Virus record (IMG/VR): IMGVR_UViG_2563366860_000007
Location: 1 to 40,364 of that record
Origin: a virus
Taxonomy: Duplodnaviria > Heunggongvirae > Uroviricota > Caudoviricetes
Length of the DNA stretch: 40,364 nt
Strand: one strand, 5' to 3'
Under the pieces are notes generated by a model. The model had not been told where the DNA came from. It did no database searches and worked only from the letters and a program-made list of their open reading frames with translations. The position numbers and the translations under genes are program-made. Of this stretch, positions 1 through 40,364 are shown one piece after another. Numbering within the stretch: position 1 is the stretch's first letter; every line of letters starts with the position of its first letter.

Positions 1-249
1 ATGCGTATTGAAATCTGCATAGCCAAAGAAAAAATGACTAAAATGCCAACCGGTGCTGTGGATGCGTTAAAGGAAGAATTAACCCGACGCATCAGTAAGC
101 GTTATGACGATGTAGAAGTGATCGTAAAAGCCACCAGCAATGATGGGCTTTCTGTTACACGCACAGCAGATAAGGATTCTGCAAAAACATTTGTTCAGGA
201 GACTCTGAAAGATACCTGGGAGTCTGCTGACGAGTGGTTTGTTCACTAA
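1..249 (+). CDS. DinI-like protein (DNA damage-inducible protein I family), complete 82 aa
   Basis: Translation MRIE...[11 protein letters not shown] matches by recall the E. coli DinI pattern (MRIE start, ETWESAD-WFV C-terminus); opposite strand to the tail genes, so moron-like. Confidence 0.7.
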
Positions 250-317
250 TAAACACGTAAAATCGGTAACGGCTGGAAATCATTCAATACTCGCACTATC
301 GAAAGTTAACCAGCCAA

Positions 318-355
318 CCGCAGTATCCTGTCATGACAAGTTACTGCGGCTTTTT
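318..355 (+). terminator. Putative rho-independent terminator after dinI-like gene
   Basis: Inverted repeat CCGCAGTA...TTACTGCGG followed by a T-run (CTTTTTAC) on the plus strand. Confidence 0.4.
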
Positions 356-366
356 ACTTTTTATAT

Positions 367-654
367 TTAACGGATCAACATCCAGATCAGCAGACACGCC
401 ACCACCGGCACAGCAAAATCCATCAGGCTTGCCACATCCCACGCGCGTGGATCAAAACCGCCCCACCACGGCATGTTAATCCGCTTGCCATGCCCGAACA
501 TTTCAATCCAGCGATATTCTGCCTGGGTGTGTTCACGCGCAATGAAGAACGTACAACCGGCTATCGCCCCGTAAGCCCAGTTTCCGGTAAAAAGACCAGC
601 CAGTACCTGCACCGCCACGGCACAAAGCGCATGAAGTATCGACGTGATATCCAT
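367..654 (-). CDS. Hypothetical small membrane protein (95 aa)
   Basis: ATG start confirmed at 652-654; translation has two or three hydrophobic stretches (LHALCAVAVQVLAGLF, AVPVVACLLIWMLI); last gene of the minus-strand tail operon. Confidence 0.45.
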   Translation of the reverse strand: MDITSILHALCAVAVQVLAGLFTGNWAYGAIAGCTFFIAREHTQAEYRWIEMFGHGKRINMPWWGGFDPRAWDVASLMDFAVPVVACLLIWMLIR

Positions 655-663
655 CTGCTATCC

Positions 664-942
664 TTAAAACCACTCCCTGAGCGGGCGCTCTGGTGTAACC
701 ACCCACTCACGGAACACGGAATCATCAAATCCATCGTCAAGAAGACGGATATTAACAAAGTACCCTTCGTTTCGCGTGTATTCTGGTTCTCCGTCATCAG
801 AAACATCTGTCTCCCTGAACGTAAAACCAATCTCATCAACCAGAACGGCATTCTGCAGCTCTTCGTCCTCTTCCCAGTTAAGTTTCCTGAGAAATGCCCT
901 GAAATCTGCTTTATCACTGAAACGCAACGTGAAATCTCTCAC
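664..942 (-). CDS. Hypothetical acidic protein (92 aa) in the tfa position, coupled to the tail fibre gene
   Basis: GTG start overlaps the stf stop (GTGA); Asp/Glu-rich; no resemblance to lambda Tfa that I can recall. Confidence 0.4.
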   Translation of the reverse strand: MRDFTLRFSDKADFRAFLRKLNWEEDEELQNAVLVDEIGFTFRETDVSDDGEPEYTRNEGYFVNIRLLDDGFDDSVFREWVVTPERPLREWF

Positions 943-3002
943 TTCACAACCTCCCCAAGCTGCGCATCTGTTAGCTCTTTATGCCAGAGACGAAAATTCC
1001 TCACATGCCCAAATAAATGGCGTAATCCTGCTGTAGTTTGTCCACCAATGCGAATGGTTGCTGTACTCCGGATATATTCCCATGTGGTTTTTGTTTCGCT
1101 GGATATACGCCCGTTACTTACTGCACATGTAGACCGTTCGGACTTTACCCGCATACCAATAAGCATTTTTTTCAGCCCGGCATTTTCATTTATTCGTCGG
1201 TCTGAACCACCTATATCGCAATACGGAAAACCGTCGTACCCACCTGATGAACCAAACCCCATTACGATCCCCGCTCCGGTTTGATGACCGCCGGTATCAA
1301 AAACACGCGGCGCTGCATTTGGCGTTTTATACCAGTTCTTATGTACCTCACAAAGAACCGTAAAAGGAAGATTATAAAGATTATTATTAATTGGAACTGT
1401 AACTATATCGCTTGCGCGGGTAGCCGCCGTCGTTCCTGAGATAATAAAAGATGATGCACACGAACCATCCTCAACCTGAGGGGTGGCCAGATAAATATAG
1501 TCTCCAGATACGGTTGCTCCGCCCTGATTAGGAGAATACTGTATCTGAGATCCTATTTTTAACTCATCATCAATTGCCAGGATTGTTGCCTCTGCAAAAA
1601 TCCATCCGGTAGCTTCGTCCTTTCTGACTCTCGCTGTAACCCTTGAGTCCGCGCCACCTGTCATATTAATTTCAAGCGTTTGTGTATCAATATATGCATC
1701 ACCAAGAAAAGTTGTTGCACTACCGTCATATTTATCAAAGCGGATACGCAACCCTACCTGTCGTTCTGTTTTAAAACGACATGAGGTTGTCACGTACTTG
1801 TTATCGCCTGAAACATCAACTGACTTTGTAGCAGCAATTGATGCCATATTAATGGCTGACGTTTTCCCAATCAGAGAATCGTTACAAACAAACTTTCCAT
1901 AAGTAAAACCAAAACTATCAGTTCCAACCTCAGCGACATTCATATTTGCAGATTTACCCCAAGAAGCTGGAGTTGCTGAATTCAACATGTAGTTGGTTCG
2001 CTGACCTTCAATCAATAAACCTTCTTTTTCAAATCGTGGCTCATTAATTTCCGCCGTTTTCAGTTCGCCAGATTTATTGATATATGTTGCCGTTGATGCG
2101 CGACTGAAATTAACCTGTTTATCACTGGCAACCTGAACCACATTATCACCAATCTTCACTTTTTTATAACCCGGAGAATAGCCCGTAATCATATCCAGCG
2201 AATCATTAAAGGGTATCCACACATCCGGCAGCGGCTGTAAAACATATCTGTACGGCTCTGCTGTCTGGTTTGCGTATTCTCTGGCAGCATCTTCACTTGC
2301 TTTTGCTGCCGTCTGGCTTGCTGCCGATGCTTTCGCCGAGTTCGCCGCCGCTGTTTCGCTCACCTTTGCGTTGGCTTCACTGTCTTTGGCATTCGTCTCA
2401 CTGGTTTTCGCTGCCGTCTGGCTGGATTTTGCGTTTTTTTCGCTGGCCTTTGTGGCTGTCTCGCTATTTTTCGCGTTGGTTTCTGATTTTTTGGCTGCTG
2501 TCGCGGAGTTTGCCGATGCAGTCTGCGAGGCCGCTGCCGCCTGTGCGCTGTTAGCTGCATTCGTTTCTGAGGTTTTCGCCGCGTTCTTCGATGATGCCGC
2601 GGCAGTTTCGGATTTCTTTGCTGCCGCTGCGCTCTGTGATGATGCTCCGGCATGACGTGCCACTTCATTCACCATCAGCTCAAAACGGCGCAGTGCCTCC
2701 GGACGAACATCATCCTCCGTCATGGCGCCGAGAAAATCATTCAGCGTACCTGGTCTGGAACCTTCATAGACGGTAATGGTCCCGGCATGTGAAGGCGGAA
2801 AACCTTCAACCAGCAGGGTGACGCTGTACTGGCCATACTCAACATCCATGCTGTAACGCCCGGCTTCATCCGGATTTTCAGAGGCCACCGTGTTCACCAC
2901 CACCGTGCTGCTGGTCCGTCTGGCCTTCAGCACAATGGTGCAGTTCTGTACTGGTTTTCCTGTGCCATCTTTCAGCACACCTGAGATTTTTACTGCTGCC
3001 AT
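939..3002 (-). CDS. stf: Side tail fibre protein (lambda Stf-like N-terminus, collagen-like repeats, divergent C-terminal domain)
   Basis: N-terminus MAAVKISGVLKDGTGKPVQNCTI...GRYSMDVEYGQYSV closely matches recalled lambda Stf; Ala/Ser/Thr/Lys-rich repeats (KKSETNAKNSETA...) follow; ATG at 3000-3002 has a GGAG 6 nt upstream (the track start at 3008 is GTG). Confidence 0.85.
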   Translation of the reverse strand: MAAVKISGVLKDGTGKPVQNCTIVLKARRTSSTVVVNTVASENPDEAGRYSMDVEYGQYSVTLLVEGFPPSHAGTITVYEGSRPGTLNDFLGAMTEDDVRPEALRRFELMVNEVARHAGASSQSAAAAKKSETAAASSKNAAKTSETNAANSAQAAAASQTASANSATAAKKSETNAKNSETATKASEKNAKSSQTAAKTSETNAKDSEANAKVSETAAANSAKASAASQTAAKASEDAAREYANQTAEPYRYVLQPLPDVWIPFNDSLDMITGYSPGYKKVKIGDNVVQVASDKQVNFSRASTATYINKSGELKTAEINEPRFEKEGLLIEGQRTNYMLNSATPASWGKSANMNVAEVGTDSFGFTYGKFVCNDSLIGKTSAINMASIAATKSVDVSGDNKYVTTSCRFKTERQVGLRIRFDKYDGSATTFLGDAYIDTQTLEINMTGGADSRVTARVRKDEATGWIFAEATILAIDDELKIGSQIQYSPNQGGATVSGDYIYLATPQVEDGSCASSFIISGTTAATRASDIVTVPINNNLYNLPFTVLCEVHKNWYKTPNAAPRVFDTGGHQTGAGIVMGFGSSGGYDGFPYCDIGGSDRRINENAGLKKMLIGMRVKSERSTCAVSNGRISSETKTTWEYIRSTATIRIGGQTTAGLRHLFGHVRNFRLWHKELTDAQLGEVVK
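2270..2660 (-). repeat. Tandem collagen-like coding repeats inside stf
   Basis: Repeated DNA units of the form GCTGCCGTCTGGCT / TTCGC...GCCTTTG visible by eye; they also create long spurious ORFs in other frames. Confidence 0.6.
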
Positions 3003-3013
3003 ATCCACTCCAT

Positions 3014-3066: not shown

Positions 3067-3666
3067 TCAGAACTTATAACCGACACCCACGATGAAACTG
3101 TTGGTACGCCAGTCACCGCTGCCGGAGCCTTCATAAGCGACATCAATGGCCACGGATTCGGTCGGGTTAAACTGCACGCCAGCTCCCCACGCCAGAGACG
3201 TGTTGCTGTGGCGACCGTCATCACTTCCGGTCAGCACATCGTGCTTTTTCCCCTTGTTGTCAGTTACGCGGAGATAATCCCCGGAGAAAGTCGACACACG
3301 GCTGTAAGCCACACCCGCCATCGCATACGCGCTGAACCATTCATTCACGCGTACAGACGGCCCCGCCATCACGCTGAACCAGCGGTTACGCACGGAATCT
3401 TCATGCCAGCGGGTATCGCTGTAGTGCGTTTTTTGCTCATCCTCAGCATTGGCATAACTGAAGGACGTAATCAGCCCCAGCGCGTCCGTAAACTCATAAC
3501 GGTATTTCACGTTAATCCCGTTCAGATTATCGCTGCCGGGAGCGTTCGTACGGGCATGAAGATACCCCGCGCTCAGTGTGGACTGATGTTCAGACGCCCA
3601 TGCAGGCGCACCGGATACGGACAGACAGATGGCTGCGGACAAAATGGCTGCACATAATTTACGCAT
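3067..3666 (-). CDS. lom: Outer membrane protein Lom (Ail/Lom family)
   Basis: Signal peptide MRKLCAAILSAAICLSVSGAPAWA and C-terminal VGVGYKF beta-barrel ending; sits between J and stf as in lambda. Confidence 0.85.
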   Translation of the reverse strand: MRKLCAAILSAAICLSVSGAPAWASEHQSTLSAGYLHARTNAPGSDNLNGINVKYRYEFTDALGLITSFSYANAEDEQKTHYSDTRWHEDSVRNRWFSVMAGPSVRVNEWFSAYAMAGVAYSRVSTFSGDYLRVTDNKGKKHDVLTGSDDGRHSNTSLAWGAGVQFNPTESVAIDVAYEGSGSGDWRTNSFIVGVGYKF

Positions 3667-3733: not shown

Positions 3734-6700
3734 TCAGCTAATCGTGATGCCTGCAGTGGCTTTCTTCATCACAACAACCAGCAAATCGCTGATACTTGCT
3801 GTGGGATACCAGCCATTTACCCACCATGCTGATACAGAAAACTCCAGCGTCATGTCGCCGCGACCAGCAGGCATATTAATAACACCACTGTAAACCAGCG
3901 TATTATCCAGCGCGGTACGGTTATAAATTTCAGCACCGTTTTTCTTCACTATCAGGCGGCATGACGAATAAGTATCGCTGTTCTCCTGCTCATGTCTGGC
4001 ACCGCTGAAAGCCACCGCCGGAATAACAATCTGCCGGTTAAACGGCTGATCGTCATAAACCCTGACGGTAATGGTTCCTGATGGCCAACGCTTCGGTGCA
4101 CGGGAGTCACGAGGGAAAGCCTTACCCACTGTTTTAACGAGATCGCCTTCAATCTGGTTTGCAGACAGTTTCCCTCTGATGACACAGTTCTCGTTAATGG
4201 TGACATTATTGAGCGTGCCGGTATTCGCCGTGATGGCTCCACTGATATCCGCATTGCGGGCTGTCAGCCTGCCATCCGGCGTCAGGGAAAACGTCGGAGG
4301 ATTGCCGGATGACGTGATGCTCACCGCAAACAGTCGCTTCAGGAACACGTCGTTCATGAACAGCTGATTCCCCTGCGCCACAAATAACGGCGTGGTGTTA
4401 CCGTTCTCCGGAGTAATCATCGCAATGCGATCGGCCTGCAGCAGAATGTTACTCAGCGTCTGACCATCGACATCCTCGATCCCCGCGCCAATCCCGGCCA
4501 CATAGGGAATACCGTTTTTTGTTTTCTGCACCTTCAGCATATACATGGCATTCAGCTCATTGCGCGTGTCTGACTGAACCCGCTGGATTTGCTGTATGGT
4601 CACGGCCTGGTCACCCAGCTTTTTATCCGTGGTCGAGGCAATTTCACTCCCTTTTTCATCCACGTACTGACGGACCTGTGCTATCTGCCGGGCGTTTTCT
4701 GACTGGCCCTGGCTGACTGTCTGCTTGATTTCACTTTGCTTTTTGTCCACGTACTGGCGGACCTGTGCTATCTGTCGGGTATTTTCCTCACTGCTCTGAC
4801 TGACCGTCTGTGAGATTTCACTGCTGACACGGTCCACTTTCTGACTCACCTGCGCGATGGCCAGCGTCTGATCCTCATTCTTTTTCGCAACCAGCTGCGT
4901 GAGGCTGTTTTCCGCCTCCCCGATTTTCCGGGTCACTTCCGCAATATCCGTGTCCATCCGCTGGCGGATGTCTTCTTCCAGTTGTCCGATATTCTCTTCC
5001 AGTTGAGTGACATCCGATCGCAGGGCTGACGCATCAATGCGCTTTTTCAGTGCCTGCCCCAGCAGCGTCTCATCTATCAGACCACGGAAAAATTCCAGAT
5101 ACCCTTTTGCATCATTGCTGGCCTGCCCGCTGGCTTCCACAAATGCAGACTTGCCCACCAGGTTGACACTGCGCACATAAAACCAGAAATCCATCCCCGG
5201 CTTAATCCGATCGCCCTGGACAGTCCACTGACTGCCGGTCCCCAGATAACGGGCAGATTTTTCCACCTGTGCCGTGTTCGTGATGCGTTTTTCTGAGAAC
5301 CAGAATTCAAACTGTACCGTCGGGTCATACACCGCAAGACGCGGGACCGCCGTTATCTGAAAATACCCCGGCGTCAGCTCAATCCGCGATGGCGCTGCCG
5401 GTGCGGCAATCCGGAACGATACCGACGCCGGATCGCCCTGCTGTCCCCACGCATTTACCGCCCGGACTGTCAGCCTGTAGTTCCCCAGAGCCAGTTGTGT
5501 GAAGCGGTATGTGGTTTCCGTCGTCCTGGCCGTGCTGACCAGCCGCTCACTGCCATCGTCCGCTGCCACGGTCAGGCGAAGCAGGAAGCTCACGCCCTTC
5601 ACCACCTTCGGCGTGTCCCAGCGCGCCAGCACCTGATATTCCCCGCTGTCTGCAGTGACTTCGGCGGTCAGATGCTGCACTGCTGGCGGCGTGACACCAT
5701 TCACCGTGCCGCTCTGGTCACCGTCAAAGTGCGCCCCGTTATCCACGATGGCTTCTTTTTCCGGTACATGCTGCACGGCGGTGATGGCATACGTGCCGTC
5801 ATCGTTCTCACGGATACTCACGCAGCGGAACAGGCGCTGGCGCAGCGTCGGCAGCTTCAGCCCCCACACGCTGTATCCGGCAACGCCGTCAGGAACACGG
5901 CTCACTTTTACCTTCACGCCGTCGGTGACGGACTGGACCTCCACGCTGACCGGATTACCACTTCCGTCAACCAGGCTTATCAGCGTGGTACCGGAGGATG
6001 GCAGCGTGATTTCACGGTCGAGCGTCAGTGTCCGCGTCTGGCTGTTCACCGCCAGCACGCGCCCGCCGGTGCTGATACCCGCATAGTCATCATCACAGAT
6101 TTCAATAACATCGCCCGGTACATGGCGAAGCCCTTCTGCGCCCACGCTGAAGTCCACGGTCTGCGTTTCCAGCAGCTCCGTTTTAATCAGCCACAGCCCG
6201 GCGCGGTGTGCCTGCCCCCGGCTGGTACAGCCAAAGGCATCCATCTTCGTGACATTACGACCGTAACGGGCAATGGCCCGCGTGTCCTCCACAAGCTCTG
6301 TCGCCGTCTCCCAGCCGTTATCCGGATCAATCCAGTTCACCTCAACGGCATTATGACGGTCCTTCAGGGCGCTGAAGCTGTAGCGGAACGGCGCGCCATC
6401 ATCCGGCATCACCACATTACTGCGGTTGTAGGTCCACACCTTATCTGACGGTCGGTCCTGCACGAACGTCAGCGTCTGCCCGTTCCATACCGGCATACAG
6501 CGCATCGCCGAGCAGAAATCACTGAGCACATCCCACGCCTTACGCTGTGTGGTCAGGTACGCATTACAGGTGATGCGCGGCTCCGTACCGCCAAAACCGT
6601 CCGGCACCGACTGGTCGCAATACTGGCCGATGACATACAGCGCCCATTTATCCACATCCGCCGCACCAAGACGTTTCCCCATGCCGTAGCGCGGGTGGGT

Positions 6701-7540
6701 CAGCATATCCCACAGACACCATGCCATGTTGTTGCTGTATGCTGGCTTAAACGTTCCGTCCCAGATACCGCTGTATTGCCGCGTCTGCGGGTTATAGTTC
6801 GACGGCACCTGCAGAATGCGCCCGCGCAGATGATAATTACGGCTCACCTGCTGGCTGCCGAACTGCTCCGAGTCCACCTGCACGCCGACCAGTGCCGTGT
6901 TCGGGTAGCACTGTTTCACATCGATAATTTCGGTGTATGACGACCAGAGCGTTTTGTTCTGCAGCTGGTCTGTGGTGCTGTCCGGCGTCATCCTGCGCAT
7001 CCGGATATTAAACGGGCGCGGCGGCAGGTTACCCACCACCACCGAGGCCAGATACTGTGAGGTGGTTTTGCCTTTAATGGTGATGTCTTTTTCCGTCACC
7101 CAGCCACCGTTACGTTGTATCTGAACCAGCAGGCGGACTTCCGACGGATTCCTGTCTCCCTTTGAGGTGGTTTCCACCAGTGCCTGTACACCGAAGGTAA
7201 AGCGCAGACGGTCGATGTTTGCCGACGTGATGGTCCGGGTGATCGGCGTTTCATATTTCACTTCCGTACCGAGCACCGTCTCGGAACCGGAGGATTCAAA
7301 TCCCTCCGGCGGTGACTGCTCCTGCTCACCTGCCCGGAACACCACCGTGACGCCGGAGATATTGGTATTCCCCTCACTGTCCAGCACCGGCGTACTGTTC
7401 AGCAGCACACTTTTTAATCCATCCACCGGACCTTCAATCGGCCCTTCGCTGATGGCATCAATCGCACTCAACAGCTGCGTGGATTTCAGGTTATCTTTCG
7501 CTTCGCGCGGGGTATGCCCCTTACTGCTGCCTTTACCCAT
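3734..7540 (-). CDS. J: Host specificity protein J (central tail fibre / tail tip), 1268 aa
   Basis: N-terminal ~1000 aa match recalled lambda J ([24 protein letters not shown]...); C-terminal part carries a coiled-coil repeat insertion and a divergent receptor-binding end. Confidence 0.9.
4641..4900 (-). repeat. About three tandem ~87-bp repeats inside J encoding a repeated coiled-coil segment
   Basis: Near-identical DNA units begin at about 4641, 4728 and 4812 (ATTTCAC...CACGTACTG.CGGACCTGTGCTATCTG); the protein shows ...[13 protein letters not shown]... then ...[13 protein letters not shown]... Confidence 0.6.
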
Positions 7541-22178: not shown

Positions 22179-22646
22179 CTACTTAATGCACTGAGTGCGG
22201 ATATACTCCTGTGCCCCTTCCAGTTGCATCTGCATCGTCATCAGCCGCTCTCTGAGGGTGAAATAATCCCGTTCAGCGGTGTCTGCCAGTCGGGGGCTGG
22301 TTGCATTATCCACGCCGGAGGTGCCGGTGGCTTCACGCACGGTACCGGGGCAGGTGGCGTTGATCCGCAGGCGCTTACGACCAGCGGCAACGTCAGCGCG
22401 AAGAGTTTCATTTTCAGCTCTCGCATCGGCTAATTCCCTCGAGTATTTTGCATCGAGCGCAGCAACATCACGCTGACGCTGCTGCATGTCAGCGATGGTG
22501 GCGGTCAGCTGCTTCAGCTCACTGACTTTTTTATCACGCTGTTCTTTGTAGGTGATGGCGTTATCACGGTAATGATTAACCGCCCACGACAGGCAGACGA
22601 TGATGCAGATAACCAGAGCATAAATAATCGCGGCGACTCTGCTCAC
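22179..22646 (-). CDS. Rz: Spanin inner-membrane subunit Rz (i-spanin)
   Basis: Close match to recalled lambda Rz (...[29 protein letters not shown]...[15 protein letters not shown]...); probable GTG start at 22644-22646 overlapping the lysozyme stop. Confidence 0.85.
22241..22426 (-). CDS. Rz1: Spanin outer-membrane lipoprotein Rz1 (o-spanin), embedded in Rz in another frame
   Basis: [23 protein letters not shown]... with lipobox LVVSAC and Pro-rich body, similar to lambda Rz1; wholly inside Rz. Confidence 0.8.
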
Positions 22647-23176
22647 TGCTCTATCCCCCAACAGGCTAATGCGCTTTCCTGGTCACGACGAATAACTTGC
22701 CCATAGCAGTTATTTGAACGTATGCGGCAATCGCGCCCACCATCCTTAATCCACCAGCGAATCGCTTCGCATGCCCCCTTACGATCACCGGCATTCAGCC
22801 GCTTATAAAACGTCGACGGGAAACACTTACCGGGGCCAATGTTGTACGGACAGAATGACGCGATCCCCGCTTTCTGGGGTTCGGTCAGCGGCACTCTGAT
22901 GTTTTTCTCCACCCACGCCAGCGCTTTATCACGCTCAATGGCGTTAACCTGGTCGCATTTTTCCTTCGACAACTTCATGCCCGGAACGACAGGTTTGCCA
23001 TCCACCATGATGGCACCACGGCAGATGGTCCAGATACCTGCACCATCACGGTATGCCGTGGTGTGGTTGCCTTCCTTTTCATCCAGAAACTGGTCGAGAA
23101 TGTCAGGCGCAGGCGCACCTGCGGCAATCAGCGCCAGAACGGCAGCCGACAGGCCGTATCTGATTTTTGCGTTCAT
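22643..23176 (-). CDS. Phage lysozyme (T4-type, GH24) with probable SAR signal-anchor-release N-terminus
   Basis: Catalytic E...D...T spacing in [16 protein letters not shown]; weakly hydrophobic Gly/Ala-rich N-terminus [17 protein letters not shown] typical of SAR endolysins. Confidence 0.85.
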
Positions 23177-31807: not shown

Positions 31808-32434
31808 ATGGAAACGGTTGGTCAGCGTATAAAAGCTCTGAGAAGAGTTACCAGAACGTCCCAGAAAGAATTGGGTAAATTTTGTGGAGTAAGTGACGTT
31901 GCTGTGGGGTACTGGGAGAAAGACATCAATGTCCCTGGTGGGGAAGCACTTTCAAAATTAGCGAAGTTCTTCAATACGTCAATAGATTACATTCTTTATG
32001 GTGCGGAGTTTGAAGGCAAACTCGTCACAAACATGCGCAGAGTTCCTGTAATCTCGTGGGTTCAGGCTGGGCAGTTTACTGAGTGCAGGACAGCAGAAGT
32101 GTTTAGTGAAGTAGACAAGTGGGTAGATACATCATTAAAGATTGGTGATAACTCATTTGCATTGGAGGTTAAAGGCGACTCCATGACTAACCCTAACGGC
32201 CTCCCAACAATACCAGAAGGCGCAACAGTGATTGTAGATCCTGATGCAGAACCCCGGCATGGAAAAATAGTCATCGCTAGACTTGATGGAACAAACGAAG
32301 CCACAGTAAAAAAATTAGTTATCGATGGCCCTCAAAAGTTTTTAGTGCCATTAAATCCCCGGTACCCCAACATCCCGATCAATGGTAATTGCCTCATCAT
32401 TGGTGTAGTCAAAGGAGTTCAATACGAACTCTAG
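31808..32434 (+). CDS. cI: CI-type prophage repressor (HTH plus S24 LexA-like peptidase domain)
   Basis: N-terminal HTH (QRIKALRRVTRTSQKELGKFCGVSDVAVGYWE) and C-terminal autocleavage domain with GDSM Ser and downstream KK. Confidence 0.9.
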   Translation: METVGQRIKALRRVTRTSQKELGKFCGVSDVAVGYWEKDINVPGGEALSKLAKFFNTSIDYILYGAEFEGKLVTNMRRVPVISWVQAGQFTECRTAEVFSEVDKWVDTSLKIGDNSFALEVKGDSMTNPNGLPTIPEGATVIVDPDAEPRHGKIVIARLDGTNEATVKKLVIDGPQKFLVPLNPRYPNIPINGNCLIIGVVKGVQYEL

Positions 32435-39050: not shown

Positions 39051-40364
39051 ATGGATAAAGTCAAATATCCAACAGGCGTCGAAAACCACGGCGGCACATT
39101 ACGCATCTGGTTTAATTTTAAAGGTAAACGTGTCAGGGAAAATCTTGGTGTCCCTGACACTGCCAAGAACAGGAAGATCGCCGGGGAACTGCGGACATCG
39201 GTATGTTTTGCCATCCGCACAGGAAGCTTTGATTATGCCGCACAGTTCCCTGACTCCCCCAACCTTCAGGCTTTTGGGGTAAGTAAAAAAGAAATTACGG
39301 TGAAGGAACTTGAAGAAAAGTGGCTGGATCTGAAACGAATGGAAATCTCTGCAAATGCATTCAATCGCTATGAATCCGTTGCAAGAACGATGGTTCCGAA
39401 AATTGGAGGCAGCAGACTGGTGTCATCGGTAACCAAAGAGGAATTGCTGTATATCAGGAAAGATTTACTGACCGGGTATCAGAATTCAACGAAAAACAAA
39501 GCAGCAGCAAAAGGACGGAGCGTCGTTACTGTAAATTATTACATGACAACTATCGCTGGAATGTTTCAGTTTGCTGCAGATCACGGTTACTTAGAAGCAA
39601 ATCCCTTCCAGGGAATTAAGCCTCTTAAAAGAGCCAGGGCAGAGCCAGATCCGCTAACTCGTGACGAATTTATTCGCCTGATAGATGCTTGCCGACATCA
39701 GCAGACGAAAAACCTGTGGTCATTGGCTGTGTACACAGGAATGCGTCACGGTGAACTGGTCTCCCTGGCCTGGGAAGATATCGATCTGAAAGCAGGAACT
39801 ATTACTATCAGGCGCAATTATACGAAACTCAGTGAGTTCACTCTACCTAAAACTGAAGCAAGTACAAACAGGGTTGTGCATCTTATCCAGCCCGCTATCA
39901 GTGTCCTGAAAAATCAGGCTGAAATGACAAGACTGGGTAAGCAGCACCACATCAAGGTTCAACTACGTGAATATGGGCGCTCAGTGAATCATGAATGTAC
40001 TTTCGTATTTAACCCCCAGGTGGTTAGAAAAAGCAAACAGGTCGGTTTTATCTACAAGGTAGATTCTATTGGCGACTCATGGGAAACAGCCGTTAAGCGT
40101 GCGGGCATCAGGCACCGGAAAGCATACCAGTCACGACACACTTATGCGTGCTGGTCATTATCTGCCGGAGCAAACCCAAGCTTCATTGCCAGCCAGATGG
40201 GCCATGCAAGTGCCCAGATGGTATTCAATGTATACGGAGCATGGATGACTGACAGTAATGCAGAACAGATCGCAATGCTGAATCAGAAGCTGGCAGATTA
40301 TGTCCCAATGATGTCCCATGGTCACCAAAGTGACACAAGAGACTTATTAAAATCAGTAGGTTAG
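39051..40364 (+). CDS. int: Tyrosine site-specific integrase
   Basis: 437 aa with arm-binding-type N-terminus and catalytic region (conserved Arg, HxxR in RHTYACW, C-terminal Tyr region); stop codon at the window edge, so attL lies outside. Confidence 0.9.
   Translation: MDKVKYPTGVENHGGTLRIWFNFKGKRVRENLGVPDTAKNRKIAGELRTSVCFAIRTGSFDYAAQFPDSPNLQAFGVSKKEITVKELEEKWLDLKRMEISANAFNRYESVARTMVPKIGGSRLVSSVTKEELLYIRKDLLTGYQNSTKNKAAAKGRSVVTVNYYMTTIAGMFQFAADHGYLEANPFQGIKPLKRARAEPDPLTRDEFIRLIDACRHQQTKNLWSLAVYTGMRHGELVSLAWEDIDLKAGTITIRRNYTKLSEFTLPKTEASTNRVVHLIQPAISVLKNQAEMTRLGKQHHIKVQLREYGRSVNHECTFVFNPQVVRKSKQVGFIYKVDSIGDSWETAVKRAGIRHRKAYQSRHTYACWSLSAGANPSFIASQMGHASAQMVFNVYGAWMTDSNAEQIAMLNQKLADYVPMMSHGHQSDTRDLLKSVG

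What the first reader, a model, noticed from the sequence alone, without database searches (positions are those of the whole stretch)
1..942. Right-end cargo: DinI-like gene, small membrane protein and a non-Tfa ORF replacing the tail fibre assembly gene
After a lambda-like stf the expected tfa is absent. Instead there is a 92-aa acidic ORF coupled to stf by GTGA, a 95-aa membrane protein, and on the opposite strand a complete DinI-like gene with its own terminator. DinI-like proteins modulate RecA/SOS, so prophage copies could tune induction; the small acidic ORF could be a fibre chaperone or a fibre-associated immunity factor.
Basis: partly seen in the sequence, partly recalled or inferred. 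Interest (0 to 1): 0.45.

Follow-up and report, generated by a model that had tools for sequence, protein, structure and literature searches.

The report
Prophage tail-fibre end with cargo genes
This is the tail-fibre end of an ordinary E. coli lambda-like prophage, where the usual fibre-assembly gene is replaced by a small uncharacterised partner protein that travels with this fibre tip in about 200 phages, followed by a widespread membrane protein of unknown function and a standard SOS-controlled DinI-like gene.

Summary
Window 1-942 holds a complete DinI-like gene (1-249, +) with a terminator, a 95-aa membrane ORF (367-654, -) and a 92-aa acidic ORF (664-942, -) whose GTG start overlaps the stf stop. 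There is no Tfa anywhere in the window.

All three genes are common in E. coli prophages, where they are annotated "hypothetical" or "DinI-like".

- **92-aa protein.** It is not Tfa-like by sequence or by predicted fold. It is encoded right after one particular fibre C-terminal module in about 190-205 phage genomes: lambdoids, Drexlerviridae, T5-like, rV5-like and Dhillonvirus. Its start always overlaps the fibre stop. It is therefore most likely a fibre-specific accessory protein. Whether it is a chaperone or a tip/joint subunit is unresolved. Its presence in strictly virulent phages argues against an immunity factor.
- **95-aa protein.** It belongs to a large family with no Pfam match that sits directly after receptor-binding genes in many phage types. 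Its function is unknown.
- **dinI-like gene.** It is intact. In 97%-identical relatives it has a sigma-70 promoter with two LexA boxes, a known arrangement.
- **Replacement.** Relatives keep Tfa C-terminal remnants downstream, so the fibre tip and its partner replaced an older stf-tfa pair.

Interest is modest.

The parts
1..249 (+). dinI-like gene, 82 aa, complete. The window begins at its ATG.
   Evidence: Pfam PF06183 E 1.1e-19, full profile. phrog_189. Full-length alignment to E. coli DinI 1GHH, E 3.7e-13, with the C-terminal acidic helix conserved. Below the NCBIfam equivalog cut-off (73 against 111 bits), so it is a DinI-like paralogue. The promoter and two LexA boxes are seen only in relatives.
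318..364 (+). Intrinsic terminator of dinI: hairpin 318-349 followed by CUUUUUACUUUUUAU. On the minus strand no T-run follows the hairpin.
   Evidence: RNA fold -14.8 kcal/mol, z = -3.06, 0 of 200 shuffles as stable. The consensus scan missed it because of its long interrupted stem and loop.
367..654 (-). 95-aa small polytopic membrane protein (phrog_1443). It starts 9 nt after the 92-aa stop, with an AAGGA Shine-Dalgarno.
   Evidence: PHROG hit 4.4e-57, function unknown. 563 clusters of homologues with an invariant REHTQAEYRWI...MPWWGGFD loop. Hydropathy. dN/dS 0.15-0.39. No Pfam, NCBIfam, PADLOC or PDB match.
664..942 (-). 92-aa acidic cytoplasmic protein (phrog_1361), translationally coupled to stf (GTGA overlap, GGAGG 7 nt upstream). 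Candidate fibre-specific accessory protein.
   Evidence: PHROG hit 1.1e-40, function unknown. 191 phage records, almost always abutting a tail fibre gene. AF2 with alignment: pLDDT 91, alpha+beta fold. No informative structural relative. No Tfa match in any of 28 family members.
939..3008 (-). Side tail fibre gene stf, 689 aa. It has a lambda-type N-terminal anchor, an Ala/Ser/Lys-rich shaft and a non-lambda C-terminal module.
   Evidence: Pfam phage_tail_N 7.4e-68. The N-terminus matches PDB 9e7m 'tail fiber protein'. phrog_1419.
942..2231 (-). C-terminal module of about 430 aa of stf (residues about 260-689) that is inherited together with the 92-aa gene. It has no intramolecular chaperone domain.
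   Evidence: 43-55% identical to the C-termini of the lateral fibres of KarlJaspers, IrisVonRoten and CarlMeissner. Its last 150 aa are found in 205 phage records, directly upstream of the 92-aa homologue. NCBIfam GTA_spike_fiber domain and RcGTA head spike fibre 6TB9, E 7e-7. The IrisVonRoten homologue was described as carrying a galectin-like tip (PMC11990801).
39051..40364 (+). The prophage's own integrase (437 aa) at the opposite end. It shows that 1-942 is the attR-proximal end.
   Evidence: Pfam Arm-DNA-bind_2 and Phage_integrase. In TUM10008 the same prophage sits in yecE with the core TTAACTGCGTG at both ends.

Best explanation
Window 1-942 is the attR-proximal end of a lambdoid prophage. 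It contains two separate units.

**Unit 1: the end of the late (tail) operon.**
- stf carries a lambda-type anchor joined to a foreign C-terminal receptor-binding module of about 430 aa. That module has neither a Tfa-dependent tip nor an intramolecular chaperone domain.
- The 92-aa acidic protein is translated by coupling from the stf stop. I infer it is the dedicated accessory protein of that module. It either helps the fibre end fold and trimerise, or stays bound at the fibre tip as a cap or joint.
- In some phages a distal fibre gene follows it, which fits the joint reading.
- The module and the 92-aa gene move between phages as one two-gene unit. Here that unit replaced an older stf-3'/tfa pair.
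- The 95-aa gene that follows encodes a small inner-membrane protein. Its family is placed directly after receptor-binding genes in many phage types. My best guess, with low confidence, is an envelope-acting factor, for example superinfection exclusion or protection of progeny from re-adsorption.

**Unit 2: an independent monocistronic dinI-like gene.**
- It is read convergently and has its own terminator.
- In relatives it is driven by a LexA-repressed sigma-70 promoter. It would therefore be made during the SOS response and act on RecA filaments like DinI.

**Shown:** gene structures, family memberships, linkage of the fibre module to the 92-aa gene, Tfa remnants in relatives, LexA boxes in relatives.

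**Inferred:** physical interaction of the 92-aa protein with the fibre, any function for the 95-aa protein, and any effect of DinI on induction.
For: **Linkage of the 92-aa gene to the fibre module**
- 92-aa homologues occur in 191 phage records and the stf C-terminal 150 aa in 205. The taxon breakdown is nearly identical and the coordinates abut within the same records: ev243, IrisVonRoten, EC100, T5_ev219, CarlMeissner, BRET, LM40P1.
- The fibre C-terminal module is 43-55% identical in Drexlerviridae, T5-like and rV5-like phages that carry the partner.
- The start codon overlaps the fibre stop in all six junctions read.
- All 45 IMG/VR relatives keep the order stf, 92-aa, 95-aa, while the downstream content varies.

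**No alternative assembly factor**
- No Tfa exists in the window and stf has no Peptidase_S74 domain.

**Replacement**
- Caudo_TAP C-terminal remnants lie downstream in relatives.

**The 92-aa ORF is a real protein**
- pN is far below pS, and the AF2 model with alignment has pLDDT 91.

**Possible joint role**
- Distal fibre genes follow the 92-aa gene in 2G7b, KarlJaspers and IrisVonRoten. They share the N-terminal motif M[AV]T.T.IP.DI..LK.
- A branched proximal/distal fibre was described for IrisVonRoten (PMC11990801).

**95-aa family position**
- It lies directly after tailspike, tail fibre, Tfa or gpJ genes in P22-like, P2/HP1-like, phiHAP-1, Kuttervirus-like and Comamonas elements.
- In the P22-like phage Gally it has a moron-like layout: terminator, AT-rich spacer, promoter-like site.

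**dinI**
- Family and structure matches and terminator.
- TTGACA-17-TAAAAA promoter with two CTG-N10-CAG boxes in L001, L002 and L011.
- LexA-controlled prophage dinI homologues are known from Gifsy phages.
Against: - No direct evidence of binding between the 92-aa protein and the fibre. A multimer prediction could not be run.
- The two halves do not co-vary strictly. The fibre tip is 75-82% identical to Drexlerviridae and T5-like phages but only about 42% to ev207. The 92-aa protein is 64% identical to ev207 and about 50% to Drexlerviridae. Partners can therefore be exchanged, and linkage could partly be hitch-hiking at a recombination boundary.
- For the 95-aa protein there is no functional evidence. 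One Aeromonas copy lies outside any recognisable prophage. The family is conserved regardless of receptor-binding protein type, which does not fit a receptor-specific blocker.
- No promoter-like site precedes the 95-aa gene in the window.
- The dinI promoter is not in the window itself.
Confidence: 0.6

Rival explanations
1. The 92-aa protein is specifically a virion-borne joint or socket. It stays on the galectin-like tip of the proximal fibre and docks the conserved N-terminal peptide of a distal fibre. In this prophage, which has no distal fibre gene, the socket is empty or acts as a simple cap.
For: - In 2G7b, KarlJaspers and IrisVonRoten the gene lies exactly between the proximal and distal fibre genes.
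- The distal fibres share the N-terminal motif M[AV]T.T.IP.DI..LK across three phage lineages.
- BASEL annotators labelled the IrisVonRoten copy 'tail fiber protein'.
- Branched fibres are established in T5-like phages (PMC4728585 and PMC10713586).
Against: - The gene is kept under purifying selection in many lambdoids with no distal fibre gene. The window has no ORF with the docking motif.
- The gene that follows in rV5-like phages lacks the motif.
- No fusion of this domain to any fibre protein was found among 1.8 billion representatives.
- No virion proteomics could be found for a phage carrying it.
Confidence: 0.3
2. The 92-aa and 95-aa genes are morons unrelated to fibre assembly, for example a superinfection-exclusion or immunity pair expressed from the prophage. 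They sit next to stf only because operon ends are insertion hot spots.
For: - The 95-aa gene has a moron-like layout in the P22-like phage Gally. It occupies the classical lysogenic-conversion slot between tailspike and int there.
- Downstream content is highly variable: dinI, sitABCD, a methyltransferase.
- Precedents for exclusion genes in tail regions (HK97 gp15, cor, llp) come from my own knowledge.
Against: - The 92-aa protein has no export signal and is conserved in strictly virulent phages. It is always translationally coupled to one specific fibre module.
- No PADLOC hit for either protein.
- The two genes have different distributions: 191 against 75 phage records, with only lambdoids shared. 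They are therefore not a functional pair.
- In the window neither has its own promoter-like site or a preceding terminator.
Confidence: 0.12
3. The 92-aa protein is a very divergent member of the Tfa (lambda Tfa / Mu gpU / P2 G) chaperone family, so tfa is not really absent.
For: - It occupies the position directly downstream of stf.
- It is small and acidic.
Against: - No Caudo_TAP or Phage_tail_APC hit for it, or for any of 28 family members, even at E <= 1.
- It matches only PHROGs of unknown function.
- True Tfa remnants co-exist downstream of it in relatives.
Confidence: 0.03

Closest known systems
Lambda Tfa / P2 G / Mu gpU tail fibre assembly chaperones (Pfam Caudo_TAP)
   Same: A small acidic protein encoded immediately downstream of the fibre gene and inherited together with the fibre's C-terminal receptor-binding part. 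It is the only fibre-specific candidate assembly factor here.
   Different: No sequence or fold similarity. About half the size of lambda Tfa. It partners a different tip: RcGTA-spike-fibre-like plus galectin-like. Genuine Tfa remnants lie further downstream in relatives.
Branched lateral tail fibres of T5-like phages (DT57C LtfA/LtfB; IrisVonRoten Gp22/Gp24)
   Same: The stf C-terminal module is 55% identical to the IrisVonRoten proximal fibre. The 92-aa gene is the homologue of bas32_0023, which lies between the proximal and distal fibre genes.
   Different: This prophage has no distal fibre gene. The small protein is not discussed in the passages I retrieved by term search from the BASEL and DT57C papers. 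I did not read those papers in full.
E. coli DinI and the LexA-controlled dinI homologues of Gifsy prophages
   Same: Full-length DinI fold family with the C-terminal acidic helix conserved. LexA boxes overlap the promoter in relatives. The location is inside a lambdoid prophage.
   Different: It is monocistronic. The terminator follows 68 nt after the stop, so there is no antirepressor or irsA gene as in Gifsy. This phage has a cleavable S24-type repressor (31808-32434). It scores below the NCBIfam equivalog cut-off.
Receptor-adjacent exclusion proteins (T5 Llp, phi80/N15 Cor, HK97 gp15)
   Same: The 95-aa protein is a small envelope protein encoded next to receptor-binding genes. In one lineage it has a moron layout.
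   Different: No homology. It is conserved irrespective of receptor-binding protein type, and it is polytopic rather than a classical lipoprotein. It also occurs inside tail operons of P2/HP1-like prophages and once in a non-phage Aeromonas locus. The known functions of Llp, Cor and gp15 are from my own knowledge and were not tested here.

Membership tests
DinI family (Pfam PF06183) | Full-length match above the curated threshold | tested here: met
   70.9 bits against a 24.2 cut-off, profile 1-63/63. phrog_189 E 5.7e-31.
DinI family (Pfam PF06183) | Orthology to chromosomal DinI (NCBIfam equivalog PRK10597) | tested here: not met
   73 bits, below the 111-bit cut-off. It is a prophage DinI-like paralogue, as RefSeq names it.
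DinI family (Pfam PF06183) | Conserved C-terminal acidic helix that mimics DNA on RecA | tested here: met
   [14 protein letters not shown] aligns with DinI EILQETWESADDWF in 1GHH. The role of the helix comes from the literature cited in PMC3121763.
DinI family (Pfam PF06183) | LexA box in the promoter (SOS regulation) | tested here: inconclusive
   The upstream DNA is not in the window. In 97%-identical relatives there are two CTG-N10-CAG boxes (15/20 and 16/20 matches to the consensus). They overlap a TTGACA-17-TAAAAA promoter.
DinI family (Pfam PF06183) | Binding to or modulation of RecA filaments | not testable with these tools
   Needs biochemistry or genetics.
Tfa tail fibre assembly chaperones (Caudo_TAP PF02413) | Sequence match to the family profile | tested here: not met
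   No hit at E <= 0.1 for the 92-aa ORF. No hit at E <= 1 for any of 28 family members. tblastn of Tfa fragments against the whole window gives E > 0.1.
Tfa tail fibre assembly chaperones (Caudo_TAP PF02413) | Fold similar to solved Tfa/gpU-type chaperones | tested here: not met
   [not shown]
Tfa tail fibre assembly chaperones (Caudo_TAP PF02413) | Encoded directly downstream of, and co-inherited with, the fibre's receptor-binding end | tested here: met
   This supports 'works like', not membership.
Intramolecular fibre chaperone (Peptidase_S74) | S74 domain at the C-terminus of the fibre | tested here: not met
   Absent from stf. Present in the distal fibres of IrisVonRoten and KarlJaspers.
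Cor/Llp-type exclusion lipoproteins (considered for the 95-aa ORF) | Lipoprotein signal peptide with a basic n-region and lipobox | tested here: inconclusive
   A lipobox-like I-A-G-C lies at residues 31-34, and the Cys is at least 90% conserved. There is no basic n-region, the hydrophobic lead is 33 residues long, and there is a C-terminal membrane segment. No sequence match in any library.
Holins (considered for the 95-aa ORF) | Match to a holin family and location in the lysis cassette | tested here: not met
   Only 1 of 35 members touches Phage_holin_8, at E 0.04. The gene is at the fibre end, far from the lysozyme gene at 22643-23176.

The most novel reading that the evidence does not exclude
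The 92-aa protein defines a new class of tail-fibre accessory protein with a previously unassigned alpha+beta fold. It stays on the galectin-like tip of the proximal fibre. It would act as a universal socket for distal fibres that carry the N-terminal peptide M[AV]T.T.IP.DI..LK. Unrelated phages (lambdoid, T1-like, T5-like) could then swap or stack receptor-binding fibres. Separately, the 95-aa protein would be a broadly conserved envelope factor, adjacent to receptor-binding genes, with a new mode of action.
Probability: 0.2. Interest if true: 0.6.

Novelty: new variant of a known kind. Interest (0 to 1): 0.35.

Why it matters
Engineered tail fibres are used to retarget phages and phage-derived particles, and chimeric fibres often fail without their cognate assembly factor.

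If the 92-aa protein is the obligatory partner of this widespread fibre tip, it must be moved together with the tip. The tip occurs in about 200 sequenced phages, and the two small genes are found in at least 365 of 5,426 complete E. coli genomes.

If it is a docking joint, it would explain how branched fibres are assembled across unrelated phages.

The 95-aa family (563 sequence clusters, no Pfam entry) is a candidate for a general envelope function next to receptor-binding genes.

The DinI-like gene adds nothing new beyond another example of SOS-wired prophage cargo.

Tried and rejected
1. **Single-sequence AF2 model of the 92-aa protein.** pLDDT was 71, and Foldseek against the PDB gave nothing below E 0.05. 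It was superseded by the alignment-based model.
2. **Hits to long PKD-repeat proteins.** The exhaustive phmmer search returned these (E down to 2e-21). I rejected them as a weak similarity summed over near-identical repeats. Each repeat scores only about 30 bits in the pairwise comparison, Pfam PKD does not match the query, and the confident model is alpha+beta, not an all-beta sandwich.
3. **AFDB50 fold search.** The library was unavailable.
4. **The search for related loci with the family alignment.** It failed because no stretch was conserved enough. The single-protein scan returned only close relatives.
5. **Virion proteomics of rV5 (PMC3606486).** This was meant to decide between structural protein and chaperone. 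rV5 itself lacks this fibre allele.
6. **Literature searches.** I searched for a named function of either small protein in the BASEL papers, the tail fibre atlas, the DT57C structure and the lambda Stf engineering paper. Term searches found none.
7. **Fibre tips appearing without the partner gene (1W, 4A7).** This was explained by an IS66-type insertion splitting stf.
8. **An antirepressor ORF downstream of dinI, as in Gifsy.** None fits in the 68 nt before the terminator.
9. **PADLOC defence models.** No hits.
Full report
**What is in the sequence**

- A DinI-like ORF lies at 1-249 (+).
- A 95-aa ORF lies at 367-654 (-).
- A 92-aa ORF lies at 664-942 (-). Its GTG start overlaps the TGA of stf (939-3008, -) as GTGA. 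It is preceded by GGAGG seven bases upstream.
- The 95-aa gene starts 9 nt after the 92-aa stop, behind an AAGGA Shine-Dalgarno.
- Between dinI and the 95-aa gene there is a hairpin at 318-349 followed by CUUUUUACUUUUUAU. It folds at -14.8 kcal/mol with z = -3.1. On the minus strand no T-run follows it.
- Upstream lie lom (3067-3666) and J (3734-7540).
- RefSeq annotators call the same three small genes at the same coordinates in 97%-identical genomes.

**Genomic context**

The window begins exactly at the dinI ATG and ends at the stop of a 437-aa integrase (39051-40364).
- In E. coli TUM10008, both ends of the window match at about 97%. There the prophage sits in yecE with the core TTAACTGCGTG at both junctions. 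dinI is the last gene, about 262 bp from attR. So 1-942 is the attR-proximal end, equivalent to the lambda b region.

**The dinI-like gene**

- It matches Pfam DinI over the whole profile (70.9 bits; cut-off 24.2).
- It aligns end to end with E. coli DinI (1GHH, E 3.7e-13), including the C-terminal acidic helix.
- It scores below the NCBIfam equivalog cut-off (73 against 111 bits). It is a prophage paralogue, not a pseudogene.
- The upstream spacer is outside the window. In three relatives it is conserved and reads TTGACA, 17 nt, TAAAAA. Two CTG-N10-CAG LexA boxes are present, one over the spacer and one over the start region, followed by GAGGG and the ATG.
- No second ORF fits before the terminator, so the gene is monocistronic.
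- LexA-controlled dinI homologues in lambdoid prophages are already described for Gifsy phages. There they head an antirepressor operon, and non-polar dinI deletions had no significant effect on induction reporters (PMC3121763).
- This phage has an S24-type cleavable repressor (31808-32434).
- This part of the finding is real but ordinary.

**The 92-aa protein is not Tfa**

- Pfam, NCBIfam and PADLOC give nothing. PHROGs places it in phrog_1361, function unknown.
- None of 28 diverse family members touches Caudo_TAP even at E <= 1.
- With an alignment of 28 homologues, AlphaFold2 gives a confident alpha+beta domain: pLDDT 91, pTM 0.77.
- It is acidic (pI 4.26) and has no hydrophobic segment.
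- pN is far below pS in all comparisons.

**What the 92-aa gene is linked to**

- tblastn finds it in 191 of 50,697 phage records: lambdoids, Drexlerviridae, T5-like, rV5-like and Dhillonvirus. In 44 of the 53 annotated rows shown, the match touches a tail-fibre or tail-protein gene.
- The last 150 aa of stf are found in 205 records. The taxon breakdown is almost the same, and the coordinates abut the 92-aa homologue.
- In KarlJaspers, IrisVonRoten and CarlMeissner, the fibre upstream of the homologue shares the whole C-terminal module of about 430 aa at 43-55% identity.
- In all six junctions read, the start codon overlaps the fibre stop (ATGA, TAATG or GTGA).
- All 45 IMG/VR relatives keep the order stf, 92-aa, 95-aa.
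- Apparent exceptions (1W, 4A7) are stf genes split by an IS element.
- The module contains a region like the RcGTA head spike fibre (6TB9, E 7e-7; NCBIfam GTA_spike_fiber). In IrisVonRoten it was described as ending in a protruding galectin-like domain (PMC11990801).
- stf has no Peptidase_S74 intramolecular chaperone, and the window has no Tfa.
- The simplest reading is that the 92-aa protein is the fibre-specific accessory factor for this tip.
- Its presence in strictly virulent phages and its lack of any export signal argue against a prophage immunity factor.

**Chaperone or structural joint?**

- In 2G7b (a lambdoid), KarlJaspers (T1-like) and IrisVonRoten (T5-like), a distal fibre gene follows the 92-aa gene. 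The three distal fibres share the N-terminal motif M[AV]T.T.IP.DI..LK.
- That fits a docking platform formed by the proximal tip, possibly with the small protein.
- Against this, many lambdoids, including this window, keep the small gene with no distal fibre gene and no such motif anywhere.
- The two halves also do not co-vary strictly. The tip is closest to Drexlerviridae and T5-like phages, while the 92-aa protein is closest to other lambdoids.
- I could not run a multimer prediction. I found no virion proteome for a phage that carries the gene.
- The choice remains open.

**Replacement of tfa**

- Relatives N56 and MS20657 carry pseudogene remnants between the 95-aa gene and the dinI terminator. 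These match Caudo_TAP positions 95-130 and 77-130 of 131.
- About 21 of the 45 IMG/VR loci have the same remnant.
- An ancestral stf-tfa pair was therefore overwritten, from the stf 3' part into tfa, by the new fibre tip and its partner gene. In this window the remnant has been lost altogether.

**The 95-aa protein**

- It belongs to phrog_1443 (function unknown) and to a large family: 563 clusters at 90% identity in Escherichia, Salmonella, Enterobacter, Citrobacter, Leclercia, Aeromonas and Comamonas.
- The central loop REHTQAEYRWI...MPWWGGFD is invariant.
- There is no match in Pfam, NCBIfam, PADLOC or the PDB.
- dN/dS is 0.15-0.39.
- Its distribution differs from the 92-aa gene: 75 phage records, mostly temperate.

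Its position is strikingly constant. It lies directly after receptor-binding genes in these elements:
- lambdoid stf;
- the P22-like tailspike of Gally. There it follows a terminator and an AT-rich spacer with a promoter-like site, and it precedes int, which is a moron layout;
- the Tfa of phiHAP-1;
- the tail fibre of P2/HP1-like prophages in Aeromonas and Leclercia, abutting or overlapping its stop;
- between two tailspike genes on a Kuttervirus-like contig;
- after a gpJ-like gene in Comamonas.

One Aeromonas copy has no phage genes within 6 kb. In the window it has no promoter-like site of its own. An envelope-acting role, such as exclusion or protection of progeny, is only a guess.

**Prevalence and novelty**

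- The two-gene segment 367-942 is found at 80% coverage or more in 365 of 5,426 complete E. coli genomes. Part of it, mainly the 95-aa gene, is found in 1,906.
- Everything here is therefore common and already catalogued as 'hypothetical'.
- What is new is the inference that the 92-aa family is a non-Tfa, fibre-module-specific accessory protein shared across phage families. The 95-aa family is also a conserved neighbour of receptor-binding genes with no assigned function.
- I rate the whole as a new variant of a known kind, with modest interest.

Noticed in passing
window 367-654 (-); loci L007, L008, L060-L064: The 95-aa membrane protein family sits directly after receptor-binding genes (stf, tailspike, P2-type tail fibre, Tfa, gpJ) in sipho-, podo- and myovirus-type elements of several genera. 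One Aeromonas rivipollensis copy has no phage genes nearby and lies beside two lipid A acyltransferase genes. It has no Pfam, NCBIfam or PADLOC match.
   Followed up: partly
L059 3792-4829; L004 4270-4947; L005 5289-7013: Distal fibre genes that follow the 92-aa homologue in 2G7b, KarlJaspers and IrisVonRoten share the N-terminal motif M[AV]T.T.IP.DI..LK, although the rest of each protein differs. This may be a docking peptide. The KarlJaspers gene, annotated 'putative lateral tail fiber chaperone', looks like a short distal fibre with a marginal Peptidase_S74 match (22.4 bits against a 22 cut-off, E 1.6e-4).
   Followed up: partly
window 1 and 39051-40364; L001, L011, L012: The same dinI, 95-aa, 92-aa, stf block lies next to a dusA-type integrase in some strains. 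In others it is at the attR end of a yecE-integrated prophage with a different integrase. The window starts and ends exactly at gene boundaries.
   Followed up: yes
window 664-942 (-); proteins P0152, P0163, P0165, P0190: An exhaustive phmmer search with the 92-aa protein returns long PKD-repeat proteins, with summed E-values down to 2e-21. Each repeat aligns weakly in the same register. I judged this an artefact of repeat summation, because the confident model is alpha+beta.
   Followed up: yes
L058 4177-7273; L065 1917-4333 and 5177-8626: Lambdoid phages ev207 and 1W carry the sitABCD iron/manganese transporter immediately after the 95-aa gene. In 1W the stf gene is split by an IS66-type element.
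   Followed up: no
window 3734-7540 (-): The J tail-tip protein is 1268 aa and contains a duplicated coiled-coil stretch of about 35 aa (…[18 protein letters not shown]…), visible in the translation.
   Followed up: no
window 31-34 of the 95-aa protein (nt about 553-564, - strand): There is a lipobox-like I-A-G-C, and the Cys is conserved in at least 90% of homologues. It has no basic n-region and follows a 33-residue hydrophobic lead, so lipoprotein processing is doubtful.
   Followed up: partly
[not shown]
   Followed up: no
window 1-364: Q-antiterminated late transcription coming from stf would read through the hairpin, which has no T-run on the minus strand. It would then run antisense across dinI, so late transcription could dampen dinI expression. 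This is pure inference.
   Followed up: no
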